Source: Escherichia coli
GTDB lineage: Bacteria; Pseudomonadota; Gammaproteobacteria; Enterobacterales; Enterobacteriaceae
Length of the DNA stretch: 64,000 bases
Strand: one strand, 5' to 3'
Assembly (NCBI RefSeq): GCF_003334405.1
Contig: NZ_QOWM01000013.1
Part shown: in pieces, positions 29,101 to 32,100 of the stretch
How positions within the stretch are numbered: position 1 is the stretch's first letter
Layout of the letters: every line of letters starts with the position of its first letter
Position numbers: made by a program

Positions 29101-32100
29101 CGCTGCTGATCAACACCAGCTTAAGCAAAGAACAGCGTCGGGAAAAAGCCCTGTCGATGATGGCGAAAGTCGGCCTGAAAACCGAGCACTATGACCGCTA
29201 TCCGCATATGTTCTCCGGCGGTCAGCGTCAGCGTATCGCCATCGCCCGTGGTCTGATGCTCGACCCGGATGTGGTGATTGCCGATGAACCGGTTTCCGCG
29301 CTGGATGTTTCAGTGCGCGCGCAGGTGCTGAATCTGATGATGGATTTGCAGCAGGAGTTGGGGCTGTCTTATGTCTTTATCTCCCACGACCTGTCGGTGG
29401 TGGAGCACATTGCTGATGAAGTGATGGTGATGTACCTGGGCCGCTGCGTGGAGAAGGGAACGAAAGACCAAATCTTCAATAACCCGCGCCATCCGTACAC
29501 TCAGGCGCTACTTTCCGCGACGCCGCGCCTGAACCCGGACGATCGCCGCGAGCGCATCAAGCTCAGCGGTGAACTACCAAGCCCACTGAATCCACCGCCG
29601 GGTTGCGCCTTCAACGCCCGCTGTCGTCGGCGCTTCGGCCCCTGCACCCAGTTGCAGCCGCAGCTAAAAGACTACGGCGGTCAACTGGTAGCTTGTTTTG
29701 CTGTTGATCAGGATGAAAATCCGCAGCGTTAACTCACAAAACCGGGGCCATGCGCTCCGGTTTACTCAATCAGCTTCAACAGTGGCGACAAGCATAGCAA
29801 AATGCCGTACAGCAGAATCAGCCAGGCTTTAAATCCGCGAAGTTTTTCCAGTTGTGCGACTTTATAGATCAGGAAAAACGGAATGAGGCACGACACAATA
29901 CCATATAACGGGCTTCCCAACTGAAAGAACACCAGCACCGATACACGAAACGAAACCCAAATCGTCAACGTAATGACGATAAAAGCGCAGATCGCTAGAG
30001 TCAGCACGCGTGAGTTAATTTTCTTGGTATCAATAATTCGGCTTAACAGATTGAGAATAATGCCTTTAATGGCCTCGTGGAAACCGAGATAAATGCCAAA
30101 GAATGCGGTCAGTACGGCAAAGATATTAAGCACCGTAGAGGTGATATGAATGATATGCCCAGGGATCACCTGCGCGGCCAGCGCCAGTGCTGAGATATTT
30201 TGTTCAAAGGCAGAAACGGCTTCTTCGTGGCTAATTGAGAAGGTAAACGAAAAGGCAAAAAACAGGATCACCGCGATGAGCGTGATATAACTAATTCGGT
30301 GGGTACGCAGCGCGAGCCGGGTTGCCAGTACTTTATCCGCTTCCCGTTTACGATAGGCAATATTCATTGGGTTAAGTACCTGAATAAATACTGCAGAAAA
30401 GAAGCAAAATGGAATGGTAAGCAAGACATCGCGGAAAAAGACGGAGGCTTGCGGGAAGGCGGTTATATTGGCGAAATTCCAGTGCGGGATCATCGCAAAA
30501 CCGAACACGACAATAATCCCTACTTTGACCACCACCATTGGCCCGGAAATCTTAAACAGTAATCGTTCACCACCAGACGCAATCGCCACCAGTACGGCGA
30601 AAATAGCGACTTTATAAAGTAGAGATTGTGAAAGATCGGCATCGGTTAAACCGAAGGTTTTCAGGTACGAGGCGCTGTCGAAAACCACGGAGAGAGAGTA
30701 GATAAAAATCCCGTGGATAATCATCAAAAAGTAGATAACCCCGAGGAAAATTCCCCAGTTCTTCCCCAGGTAATGACTGATAATATCGGTGTAGTCATTA
30801 CAGGAATCGCTTTCAGAAAGGGTTTTTAAATAAATGTCCTGCACTACCCAGGTGGCAGGATAAGCAATGATCGCTGCGGTAATAAATACCCAAATTCCCT
30901 TCAAGCCAATTTGTACTGGCATCAGCACGGTTCCGGCACCAATCGCCATGCCTATGCATAATAAAACCCAGCCGAAGTCGTAGCGTGTAAACGGCAATTT
31001 CTGATTGTGTTTCGATAGTGTGTTGTGCTGCATAAAGTCCTGTCCAGAAAGAAGTCGGCCTCGCAAAAATGAATAAACCCAGTTTCTCTTGCGCAACAGG
31101 TGGAGAAGTCGAATACGCAGTATGTAAAAAATGAGGCAACAGATTCACTGGGGAGGTCGCGAGGAGGCGCAATTCTACAAAATTGCGCATTTCACTACCA
31201 GTCTGGAGTCAGCCCGGATATGAACTGCAACTATTGCAAATAAAGAAATTAAGCTGGAAGGCATCGCGCAATGAGGAAGATTGCCGGGTGCTGACAGTAA
31301 AAAGCAATCGTAGAATCAGCGGCAAGCCGGAAAGGTTCCGGTGAGGCGCAATGTTGCGGGGGCTTTATCCCTGGTGGCATTGGTTGCTGGAGAGAGAAAA
31401 CCCCCGCACGTTGCAGGTATGCACCTGACAACACCACGGGGGCTAATCTTGACTCTAGACCACTCAAGAATAGCCGCGAAACGTTGTCATTACAACACAG
31501 GCGGCTATATGACGTTCGCAGAGCTGGGCATGGCCTTCTGGCATGATTTAGCGGCTCCGGTCATTGCTGGCATTCTTGCCAGTATGATCGTGAACTGGCT
31601 GAACAAGCGGAAGTAACGTGTCATGCGGGCGTCAGGCTGCCGTAATGGCAATTTGCGCCCGGACCAGGCCGCAGGGGGGAAACTCTGCGGCCTTTTTCGT
31701 TCTTACTGCGGGTAAGGCACCCAGTCGCCGCCGTTCAGGCGAACGTACGGTTTATCCTGGTATTGAATAACTACTGCATTTGAGTTCTCGGAGACCGGTG
31801 CTGTTTGTGGCAACCCACTGGTGAGTTTTTTCCAGTCAACATTGTCTTCGGTGAAAATCTTGCCATCGAGAACGCGAACCACCAGATCGGAGATAGCCAG
31901 GAAGCTGCTCGGTTGTTCGATGACAATCGGTGCCCCCTGATGCGGTGCCTTCATGCCGAAGAATTTCACCCCAACGGGGACGTCGGTGATAGACGGGCTA
32001 GGGATATCACGTAGGCCAGATACCTGCATTCTGTCGCCCTTCAGCGCGCCGCCGTGTTCCGGCACCACGACCACCATCACTTTACGACCCGATTTCTCAA

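What the first reader, a model, noticed from the sequence alone, without database searches (positions are those of the whole stretch)
31341..31700. ldrD/rdlD type I toxin-antitoxin module between yhjV and bcsG
The last 35 codons of a 91-codon ORF encode MTFAELGMAFWHDLAAPVIAGILASMIVNWLNKRK, a canonical Ldr-family toxic peptide, followed by a strong hairpin terminator. Ldr toxins are controlled by a cis-encoded antisense Rdl RNA overlapping the long leader; a minus-strand hairpin plus U-run near 31390-31410 is a candidate 3' end for it. The module sits next to the cellulose locus, and a peptide gene this small is easily missed by standard gene callers.
Basis: partly seen in the sequence, partly recalled or inferred. 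Interest (0 to 1): 0.4.

Follow-up and report, generated by a model that had tools for sequence, protein, structure and literature searches.

The report
Known E. coli ldrD/rdlD toxin-antitoxin module

Summary
The observation and the interpretation both hold. Window 31100-31720 is 100% identical to E. coli K-12 MG1655, between yhjV and bcsG. The peptide gene is ldrD at 31509-31616 (+). It matches Pfam Ldr_toxin end to end (E 7e-27) and is identical to PDB 5LBJ. Rfam places rdlD on the minus strand at 31395-31460 (87 bits, threshold 50). The K-12 reference annotates it at 31397-31460. An intrinsic terminator follows ldrD at 31666-31693.

The 91-codon ORF is an accident. The paralogues LDR-A/B/C lack one base just upstream of the ribosome-binding site, so the upstream frame is not conserved.

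How RdlD represses ldrD is still called unknown in the literature, so I compared 40 Ldr units from six genera. The ldrD ribosome-binding site sits in a conserved hairpin. A mutually exclusive pairing of the start region with the 3' UTR is also conserved. A candidate leader start codon (UUG, 31449) lies inside the RdlD target. The Rfam model of the hok mRNA leader weakly matches every ldr leader. Together these support, but do not prove, hok/sok-like control.

Novelty: already known. Interest: low.

The parts
31311..31316 (+). Probable -10 box of the ldrD promoter (TAGAAT). It implies a transcript start near 31322-31325.
   Evidence: Read from the sequence. It is conserved as TAGTAT at the same alignment position in LDR-A/B/C. 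The consensus scan found no promoter at its 9-of-12 threshold. Inferred, not mapped here.
31323..31700 (+). The ldrD mRNA, about 378 nt: a long structured 5' leader, the 35-codon CDS and a structured 3' UTR. The 5' end is approximate.
   Evidence: MFE is -182.3 kcal/mol, z -7.87, and 0 of 100 shuffles fold as well. The unit aligns across 40 copies from six genera at 80% mean column identity, with the leader more conserved than the CDS.
31327..31341 (+). Hairpin at the 5' end of the mRNA (CCGGA...TCCGG).
   Evidence: RNAalifold helix 1. The pair at columns 16/22 is G-C in 21 sequences and A-U in 15, a compensatory change.
31351..31428 (+). Small leader ORF of 25 codons (AUG preceded by GAGG). 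Whether it is translated is unknown.
   Evidence: The GAGG and the start codon are invariant, except that AUG becomes GUG in 4 of 40 sequences. The encoded peptide is not conserved: a 1-nt deletion in LDR-C and a 7-8 nt insertion in Klebsiella shift the frame. The AUG lies in a conserved hairpin (31351-31380), and the GGCGCA just upstream (31345-31350), which overlaps that GAGG, can pair with the 3' UTR.
31395..31460 (-). rdlD, the antisense RNA antitoxin (about 64-66 nt). It has a single-stranded 5' tail followed by a long G+C-rich stem-loop that ends in UUUUCU. It is fully complementary to the ldrD leader.
   Evidence: Rfam RF01813 scores 87 bits against a gathering score of 50. The K-12 annotation maps to 31397..31460. 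Fold z is -3.98. A match of the same family lies at the same distance upstream of ldr (47-52 nt) in all 39 complete Ldr units analysed from relatives; 27 of the 30 fetched loci gave a match.
31467..31495 (-). Probable rdlD promoter: -35 TTGTAA (31495-31490), a 17-nt spacer, -10 TATTCT (31472-31467), with the start at 31460.
   Evidence: Read from the sequence. It matches 8 of 12 consensus positions, just under the scan's threshold. The region is conserved in the 40-unit alignment. Inferred.
31449..31451 (+). Candidate start codon (UUG, with GGGGG 6 nt upstream) of a leader reading frame inside the RdlD target. In this copy it is in frame with ldrD and would give a 55-aa product.
   Evidence: It is present in 31 of 40 units and always stays open to the ldr start. 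It is fused in frame in 20 units, stops at AUGA overlapping the ldr start in 7 (including LDR-A/B/C), and stops 17 nt downstream in 4. It is absent from all 9 Klebsiella units, where CUUG/CAAG becomes CUCG/CGAG or CUCA/UGAG. It fits the unconfirmed 'ldrX' idea described in PMC4147584. Use as a start codon is not shown.
31470..31508 (+). Hairpin that hides the ldrD ribosome-binding site. AUAGCCGC (31470-31477) pairs with GCGGCUAU (31501-31508), enclosing an inner hairpin at 31483-31496.
   Evidence: The 8-pair outer stem is paired in 97.8% of cells. The closing pair of the inner hairpin is C-G in 23 sequences and U-A in 15, a compensatory change.
31509..31616 (+). ldrD CDS: a 35-aa toxic membrane peptide, MTFAELGMAFWHDLAAPVIAGILASMIVNWLNKRK, plus the stop codon.
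   Evidence: Pfam PF13940 E 6.9e-27. Identical to PDB 5LBJ. Annotated ldrD in K-12.
31624..31659 (+). 3' UTR segment that can fold back onto the ldrD start region (31483-31520) and onto the leader GGCGCAA (31345-31351).
   Evidence: It is part of the MFE structure of the full-length transcript. Across the 40 units the four long-range helices are paired in 87.5%, 96.6%, 91.4% and 85.0% of cells, with compensatory changes at four pairs. It excludes the local hairpin at 31470-31508. Its function is inferred.
31666..31700 (+). Intrinsic terminator of ldrD (stem 31666-31693, then a U-run).
   Evidence: The helix is conserved at 99.4% of cells paired, with 3 sequences carrying a compensatory change.

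Best explanation
This is LDR-D, the chromosomal type I toxin-antitoxin module ldrD/rdlD of E. coli K-12. The plus strand makes a highly structured mRNA of about 380 nt whose last part encodes LdrD, a 35-residue alpha-helical inner-membrane peptide that stops growth and condenses the nucleoid when overproduced. The minus strand makes RdlD, an RNA of about 65 nt that is perfectly complementary to the ldrD leader 49-112 nt upstream of the start codon. RdlD does not cover the ldrD ribosome-binding site, so repression must be indirect. My preferred mechanism has four steps. (a) The ldrD ribosome-binding site is locked by structure, either by pairing with the 3' UTR in the full-length transcript or by a local hairpin with AUAGCCGC. 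(b) It opens only when ribosomes load upstream, inside the RdlD target (GGGGG plus UUG at 31449), and read through the hairpin. (c) RdlD pairs with that upstream site through its single-stranded 5' tail and blocks this loading. (d) The resulting duplex is also a substrate for RNase III. This is control in the style of hok/sok. Shown here or in the literature: the identity of both genes, their positions, conservation of the structures, toxicity, rescue by RdlD, and duplex formation in cells. Inferred: steps (a) to (c).
For: Identity: the region is 100% identical to MG1655, annotated as ldrD and rdlD, and is supported by Pfam, Rfam and the PDB. The region matches 5,426 of 5,426 complete E. coli genomes, with a median of 4 copies per genome. 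Published function: LdrD overproduction is toxic and RdlD co-expression relieves it; the antisense RNA overlaps the 5' UTR but not the ribosome-binding site (PMC4147584). [quoted passage not shown] A ~21-nt RNase III product maps to the rdlD/ldrD overlap, and both RNAs are slightly stabilised in an rnc mutant (PMC7373196). Structure: the consensus fold of 40 units has 98.3% of cells paired and 11 pairs with compensatory changes, reached by 0 of 500 shuffles, against about 36-48% paired in the slid controls. The anti-SD hairpin and the 3' UTR fold-back are both conserved. The full-length mRNA folds with z -7.9. The candidate upstream start lies within the RdlD target in 31 of 40 units and always reads through to the ldr start. 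The Rfam hok-leader model aligns end to end with every ldr leader tested and ends on the ldr AUG, scoring 20-47 bits with a best E of 1e-7.
Against: The mechanism is unproven. [quoted passage not shown] The UUG start is missing from all 9 Klebsiella units, where the stem around it is preserved by base changes (compensatory in 8 of them). That suggests the stem rather than the codon is under selection. That the UUG frame stays open carries little weight, because the region is conserved for structure and the last 13 nt contain no possible stop codon. In this copy the UUG frame is fused to ldrD rather than ending at its start codon, which is not classical coupling. The leader/3'-UTR pairing GGCGCA:UGCGCC is invariant, so it offers no covariation either way. 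The fold-back was derived from this one sequence, which inflates the paired percentage. All hok-model scores are below Rfam's gathering score of 59. The reciprocal search was weak (10.7 bits on hokC, nothing on hokB), and a sequence-only profile of ldr leaders found nothing at the window's own hokA remnant. The RNase III effect on half-lives is described as slight.
Confidence: 0.95

Rival explanations
1. RdlD works mainly by mRNA destruction. The perfect RdlD/ldrD-leader duplex is cut by RNase III and the mRNA is then degraded. Translation control by a leader frame or by refolding plays no real part.
For: An RNase III-dependent ~21-nt duplex fragment from the rdlD/ldrD overlap was the third most abundant small-RNA-associated cluster. 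A shorter ldrD fragment accumulates only in the rnc mutant (PMC7373196).
Against: The same paper reports only slight increases in ldrD and rdlD level and half-life without RNase III. Reviews classify Ldr/Rdl as inhibition of protein synthesis. The strong conservation of structures that hide the ribosome-binding site is not explained by a decay-only model.
Confidence: 0.2
2. The relevant leader frame is the upstream AUG ORF (31351-31428) rather than the UUG frame. Its translation runs into the RdlD target and remodels the leader, and RdlD binding prevents this.
For: GAGG plus AUG is invariant in 36 of 40 units, and the other 4 have GUG, which is still a start codon. The ORF ends inside the RdlD-complementary region. 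Its start is hidden by two conserved pairings, as expected for a regulated start.
Against: The RdlD target (31395-31460) does not cover this start site. The ORF stops about 80 nt before the ldrD start, so direct coupling is impossible. Its frame and length vary through indels. The invariant bases can be explained by RNA pairing alone.
Confidence: 0.15
3. The gene is the whole 91-codon ORF (31341-31616), or a 55- or 65-residue form, so the product is a longer protein with an Ldr C-terminus.
For: The frame is open for 56 codons upstream of the ldrD AUG in this copy. Public protein sets contain 55-, 64- and 91-residue calls that end in the Ldr sequence. In 20 of 40 units the UUG frame is fused in frame to ldr.
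Against: LDR-A/B/C lack one base (ACA-AGG versus ACACAGG), which puts the upstream frame out of register. The offset between rdl and the ldr AUG varies from 47 to 52 nt among relatives. The Pfam model and the solved structure both cover exactly 35 residues. The upstream codons lie in RNA stems conserved at the nucleotide level.
Confidence: 0.03

Closest known systems
ldrD/rdlD (LDR-D) of Escherichia coli K-12 MG1655 (b4453/b4454)
   Same: Identical. Window 31100-31720 matches at 100% over 621 bases, with the same neighbours yhjV and bcsG. The peptide is identical to PDB 5LBJ.
   Different: Nothing. The window runs in the opposite orientation to the reference numbering.
LDR-A/B/C (ldrA-C/rdlA-C), the tandem paralogues between kdsA and chaA in K-12
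   Same: The same repeat unit of about 530 bp, with 86% mean column identity. The leader and Rdl region are nearly invariant and the terminator is the same.
   Different: The peptides are only 57% identical to LdrD. A one-base difference upstream of the ribosome-binding site makes the UUG leader frame end at AUGA on the ldr start in A/B/C, whereas it is fused in frame in D. The apical loop of the Rdl stem also differs.
hok/sok (plasmid R1 and chromosomal hok loci)
   Same: It is also a type I module with a stable, highly structured toxin mRNA, a long leader, and a short cis-antisense RNA that targets the leader rather than the toxin's ribosome-binding site. An overlapping leader frame has been proposed (mok in hok, ldrX in ldr). 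A 3' fold-back locks hok mRNA, and a conserved analogue is predicted here. The Rfam hok-leader model aligns with every ldr leader tested at 20-47 bits.
   Different: The toxins are unrelated: the peptide matches Pfam Ldr_toxin, and Ldr belongs to the Fst/Ldr superfamily. All hok-model scores fall below the gathering score. The reciprocal search is weak. 3' processing, refolding and coupling have not been shown for ldr.
Fst / RNAI-RNAII (par of Enterococcus faecalis pAD1)
   Same: The toxin superfamily is shared: a transmembrane helix, a PXXXG motif (PVIAG here), a conserved tryptophan before a charged C-terminus, and nucleoid condensation on overproduction (PMC7472228; PMC4147584).
   Different: [quoted passage not shown]

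Membership tests
Ldr toxin family (Pfam PF13940) | Full-length match of a ~35-residue peptide to the family profile | tested here: met
   E 6.9e-27, 93.7 bits, residues 1-35 on model positions 1-35 of 35.
Ldr toxin family (Pfam PF13940) | Fst/Ldr signature: hydrophobic helix with PXXXG, and a conserved Trp between the helix and a basic C-terminus | tested here: met
   P17-V-I-A-G21, W30 and a C-terminal KRK are read directly from the sequence. The signature is as defined in PMC7472228. F10, W11, H12, D13, L14, A15, A16, P17 and W30 are invariant among LdrA-D.
Ldr toxin family (Pfam PF13940) | Toxic when overproduced | not testable with these tools
   Published for the identical K-12 peptide (reviews PMC4147584 and PMC8309996, citing Kawano et al. 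2002, which I could not read).
RdlD antitoxin RNA (Rfam RF01813) | Covariance-model score at or above the curated gathering score | tested here: met
   87 bits against 50, full model 1-66, E 1.6e-18.
RdlD antitoxin RNA (Rfam RF01813) | Encoded antisense to the ldr 5' leader, upstream of and not overlapping the ribosome-binding site | tested here: met
   The RdlD 5' end at 31460 lies 49 nt upstream of the ldrD AUG at 31509. The offset is 47-52 nt in the 39 other units.
RdlD antitoxin RNA (Rfam RF01813) | Expressed as a small RNA of about 60-66 nt that counteracts LdrD | not testable with these tools
   Published for K-12. Duplex formation with ldrD in cells is shown in PMC7373196.
Long direct repeat (LDR) of E. 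coli | Repeat unit of about 500 bp shared with the other LDR copies of the genome | tested here: met
   Alignment with LDR-A/B/C gives 86% mean column identity. Places per E. coli genome: median 4, range 1-12.
Type I toxin-antitoxin system | A small hydrophobic toxin ORF plus an antisense RNA complementary to the toxin mRNA | tested here: met
hok/sok family | Toxin belongs to the Hok/Gef family | tested here: not met
   The only Pfam match of the peptide is Ldr_toxin. One paper calls ldr 'analogous (not homologous) to hok' (PMC3562002).
hok/sok family | Leader RNA reaches the Rfam RF01794 gathering score | tested here: not met
   24.2 bits in the window and at most 47.1 bits in relatives, against 59. 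The E-values (down to 1e-7) are still far better than chance, so the resemblance is real but membership is not established.
hok/sok family | An overlapping leader frame (mok-like) whose translation is needed for the toxin and is blocked by the antisense RNA | tested here: inconclusive
   A candidate UUG frame lies within the RdlD target in 31 of 40 units but is absent from the Klebsiella units. It is fused in frame to ldrD in this copy.
hok/sok family | 3' fold-back that keeps the full-length mRNA inert until it is processed | tested here: inconclusive
   A fold-back is predicted and conserved, but it was derived from one sequence, has few compensatory changes and lacks experimental data.

The most novel reading that the evidence does not exclude
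The ldr mRNA may be a hok-type switch built on a leader related to the hok leader but carrying an unrelated, Fst/Ldr-type toxin. On this reading, the full-length transcript is locked by a conserved 3' UTR fold-back onto the ldrD start region. An alternative local hairpin forms after 3' trimming. Ribosome entry at a UUG inside the RdlD target then opens the ribosome-binding site. In the LDR-D lineage that leader frame is fused in frame to ldrD, so a 55-residue N-terminally extended LdrD could also be made. Parts of this were probably proposed by Gerdes and Wagner (2007); that is my recollection, and I could not read the paper.
Probability: 0.3. Interest if true: 0.35.

Novelty: already known. 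Interest (0 to 1): 0.1.

Why it matters
As a discovery it does not matter. The locus was characterised in 2002, has Pfam and Rfam families and a PDB entry, and is annotated in the reference genome. It is useful as a positive control, because the first-stage reader recognised a 35-codon gene and its antisense RNA from raw sequence with correct coordinates. The only open scientific point is how RdlD represses ldrD, which reviews still call unknown. The comparative structures given here (a hidden ribosome-binding site, a conserved alternative 3' fold-back, and a candidate leader start inside the RdlD target) give concrete mutations to test.

Tried and rejected
- NCBIfam and PADLOC scans of the 35-aa peptide returned nothing. 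This reflects the content of those libraries, not evidence against the identification.
I used the representative-library search instead, which found 61 clusters at E<=0.001.
- The consensus promoter scan found no sites. The promoters proposed here match 8 of 12 positions (rdlD) or have an odd spacer (ldrD), so they are inferences by eye.
- The 91-codon ORF was rejected as a gene.
- The in-frame AUG at 31419 was rejected as a conserved start, since it is ATG in only 3 of the 40 units, with GTG in 2 Pseudocitrobacter units.
- A sequence-only profile of ldr leaders did not find the window's hokA remnant. The pairwise alignment of the ldrD and hokA leaders is uninformative.
- The reciprocal covariance model gave only 10.7 bits on hokC and nothing on hokB.
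- Three papers could not be read. Kawano 2012 and Fozo 2008 are not held in the library, and I did not request Kawano 2002. The mapped transcript ends and the original definition of ldrX are therefore taken second-hand from reviews.
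Full report
**1. What is in the sequence**

The ORF listing shows a 91-codon frame at 31341..31616 (+) with a GTG start. Its last 35 codons read MTFAELGMAFWHDLAAPVIAGILASMIVNWLNKRK. The AUG of that peptide is at 31509 and the stop codon ends at 31616.

The consensus scan finds two terminator-like hairpins:
- Plus strand, 31666..31693: 11 pairs, 8 of them G-C, followed by TTTTTCGTTCT.
- Minus strand, 31417..31403: followed by GGTTTTCTCT.

**2. Identity**

- Window 31100-31720 is 100% identical to many E. coli genomes, including K-12 MG1655. 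The CDS under the match is annotated ldrD, and the neighbours are yhjV and bcsG.
- In NC_000913.3, ldrD (b4453) and the ncRNA rdlD (b4454) are both annotated. Transferred to the window, rdlD is 31397..31460 on the minus strand.
- Rfam independently places rdlD (RF01813) at 31395..31460 (-) with 87 bits against a gathering score of 50, E 1.6e-18, over the full model.
- The peptide matches Pfam Ldr_toxin (PF13940) from end to end at E 6.9e-27. It is identical to the chain of PDB 5LBJ, 'Small toxic polypeptide LdrD'.
- RdlD folds into a 5' tail plus a long stem-loop at -29.5 kcal/mol, z -3.98.
- All 5,426 complete E. coli genomes have a match. The median is 4 places per genome and the maximum is 12.

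**3. The 91-codon ORF is fortuitous**

I aligned LDR-D with LDR-A, B and C of K-12.
- The leader (about 31323-31508) is nearly invariant and is more conserved than the CDS. The LdrA-C peptides are only 57% identical to LdrD.
- LDR-A/B/C lack one base just upstream of the ribosome-binding site (ACA-AGG against ACACAGG). The upstream frame is therefore out of register with ldr in those copies.
- Across 39 further units the distance from the Rdl 5' end to the ldr AUG varies from 47 to 52 nt.

Only the 35-codon gene is conserved. Public protein sets nevertheless contain 55-, 64- and 91-residue calls ending in the Ldr sequence, which are this artefact.

**4. What is published**

Reviews report the following.
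- LdrD overproduction is toxic and RdlD co-expression relieves it. [quoted passage not shown] Gerdes and Wagner proposed a small leader frame, ldrX, whose translation is needed for ldrD and is blocked by RdlD. [quoted passage not shown] - p19 capture shows an RNase III-generated duplex of about 21 nt within the rdlD/ldrD overlap, with slight stabilisation of both RNAs in an rnc mutant (PMC7373196).

I could not read the primary paper (Kawano et al. 2002), Kawano 2012 or Fozo 2008; the last two are not held in the library.

**5. Comparative analysis of the mechanism**

*Data set.* A scan of one genome per species found 30 Ldr loci in Escherichia, Citrobacter, the Klebsiella oxytoca group, Kluyvera, Salmonella enterica subsp. 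arizonae and diarizonae, and Pseudocitrobacter. Rfam finds rdlD at the same relative position in 27 of these 30 loci, several of which carry tandem copies. I aligned 40 complete units.

*Consensus fold.* The RNAalifold consensus has 84 pairs. 98.3% of cells form standard pairs and 11 pairs carry compensatory changes. None of 500 shuffles reaches these values, and the slid controls give 36-48% paired. In window coordinates the well-supported elements are:
- A 5' hairpin at 31327-31341, with a G-C to A-U switch in 15 sequences.
- The stem mirroring the RdlD stem, 31402-31441, which is invariant.
- A CUUG/CAAG stem at 31448-31451/31465-31468, which is CUCG/CGAG in eight Klebsiella units and CUCA/UGAG in the ninth.
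- A hairpin in which AUAGCCGC (31470-31477) pairs with GCGGCUAU (31501-31508). This hides the ldrD ribosome-binding site. The inner hairpin at 31483-31496 shows a C-G to U-A switch in 15 sequences.
- The terminator.

*Fold-back.* The full-length transcript (31323-31700) folds to -182.3 kcal/mol, z -7.87. Its minimum-energy structure contains a long-range duplex between the ldrD start region and the 3' UTR, plus a second long-range pairing from the leader. Paired cells across the 40 units are:

| Pairing (window coordinates) | Cells paired |
|---|---|
| 31483-31493 with 31642-31652 | 96.6% |
| 31500-31506 with 31635-31641 | 91.4% |
| 31510-31520 with 31624-31634 | 85.0% |
| GGCGCAA 31345-31351 with UUGCGCC 31653-31659 | 87.5% overall; the six invariant pairs are 100% |

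Four pairs in the first and third of these helices show compensatory changes. This fold-back and the local hairpin cannot coexist, and both are conserved. That is the hallmark of a conformational switch such as the one known for hok mRNA. Two caveats apply. The fold-back was derived from this one sequence, and most of its variation is one-sided.

*Leader frames.* A UUG at 31449, preceded by GGGGG, lies in the part of the leader that pairs with the single-stranded 5' tail of RdlD.
- It is present in 31 of 40 units, and its frame always stays open to the ldr start.
- It is fused in frame to ldr in 20 units (including this one, giving 55 codons). It stops at AUGA overlapping the ldr AUG in 7 units (including LDR-A/B/C). 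It stops 17 nt downstream in 4 units.
- It is absent from all 9 Klebsiella units.
- The open frame carries little weight, because the region is conserved for structure.

A second candidate is the AUG at 31351 with a GAGG upstream. It is invariant apart from AUG to GUG in four units. However, its peptide and length are not conserved, RdlD does not cover it, and it ends about 80 nt before ldrD.

*Resemblance to hok.*
- The Rfam model called 'sok' (RF01794) matches the hok mRNA strand. It aligns end to end with the ldrD leader and ends on the ldrD AUG (24 bits).
- It does so for every ldr leader tested, at 20-47 bits. The best hit is Klebsiella oxytoca at E 1e-7 in a 36-kb search. All scores are below the gathering score of 59.
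- In the reverse direction, a covariance model built from 37 ldr leaders puts its top hit in the hokC locus exactly on the hokC leader, with the AUGs aligned. The score is only 10.7 bits (E about 0.003 with rough calibration), and it finds nothing at hokB.
- A sequence-only profile finds nothing at the window's hokA remnant.

The resemblance is real but weak, and homology is not established.

**6. Most likely mechanism**

I commit to hok-like indirect translational control.
- The ldrD ribosome-binding site is locked by RNA structure.
- Ribosome entry upstream, inside the RdlD target, is needed to open it.
- RdlD blocks that entry.
- The duplex is additionally cut by RNase III.

My confidence that this is the ldrD/rdlD type I module is about 0.95 or higher. 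My confidence in the specific mechanism is about 0.4-0.5. Rivals are a decay-only mechanism (0.2), the upstream AUG frame as the relevant leader ORF (0.15), and a longer protein product (0.03).

**7. Verdict**

The finding is correct and already known. It is a good positive control for the first stage but not a discovery. Interest is 0.1. The most novel reading that remains open is a hok-type switch on a hok-like leader carrying an Fst/Ldr-type toxin, with an in-frame leader fusion in the D lineage. I give it probability 0.3 and interest 0.35 if true. It may already have been proposed in papers I could not read.

Noticed in passing
window 31358-31511 (+); L016 1343-1503 (+); L035 899-1061 (-): The Rfam hok-leader model (RF01794 'sok') aligns end to end with every ldr leader tested and ends on the ldr AUG. 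It scores 24 bits here and up to 47 bits (E 1e-7) in Klebsiella oxytoca, always below the gathering score of 59. A model built from ldr leaders weakly finds the hokC leader in the same register (10.7 bits) but not hokB.
   Followed up: partly
window 31483-31520 with 31624-31652, and 31345-31351 with 31653-31659: The 3' UTR of ldrD can pair with the ldrD ribosome-binding site and start codon and with the leader GGCGCAA. This pairing is conserved in 40 units from six genera. It excludes the equally conserved local hairpin at 31470-31508, which suggests two alternative mRNA conformations.
   Followed up: partly
L034 2910-3982 (E. coli UTI89, between yhjV and bcsG): UTI89 carries three tandem Ldr genes, about 483 bp apart, at the locus where K-12 and this window have one. 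Most spread-sampled E. coli matches stop at window 31700 with no bcsG under the match, consistent with extra copies. Copy number at this locus varies between strains.
   Followed up: partly
window 9610-9749 (+) and 9715-10566 (-): A second type I toxin-antitoxin remnant. The Rfam sok/hok-leader model scores 70 bits there, and the site is immediately cut by a 283-aa ORF on the minus strand. This looks like the K-12 hokA/sokA locus disrupted by an IS150 transposase gene, but I identified the locus and the IS from memory and did not check them.
   Followed up: partly
window 11448-11875 (-): A full-length match to the cspA thermoregulator (RF01766, 500.8 bits).
   Followed up: no
window 23072-23145 (+), 23242-23321 (-), 25557-25599 (-): A tRNA gene (60.7 bits), a naRNA4/CssrE element (69 bits) and the ES036/CssrF small RNA (56.7 bits), all above their Rfam gathering scores.
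   Followed up: no
L004 (503-bp contig labelled Bacillus sp. EB106-08-02-XG196): A 97%-identical Ldr gene and an rdlD match (90.4 bits) sit on a 503-bp contig with coverage 0.66 in a Bacillus assembly. This is almost certainly E. coli contamination, not a Gram-positive Ldr.
   Followed up: no
P0002, P0004, P0009: Public protein collections hold 55-, 64- and 91-residue 'proteins' whose C-terminus is LdrD. These are gene calls that start at the in-frame UUG, AUG or GUG upstream of the real start.
   Followed up: no
L001 (NZ_CP032667.1, K-12 MG1655 RefSeq record): This RefSeq K-12 record annotates ldrD but has no rdlD feature, whereas NC_000913.3 annotates rdlD. In this record it is the antitoxin RNA, not the small peptide, that is missing.
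   Followed up: no
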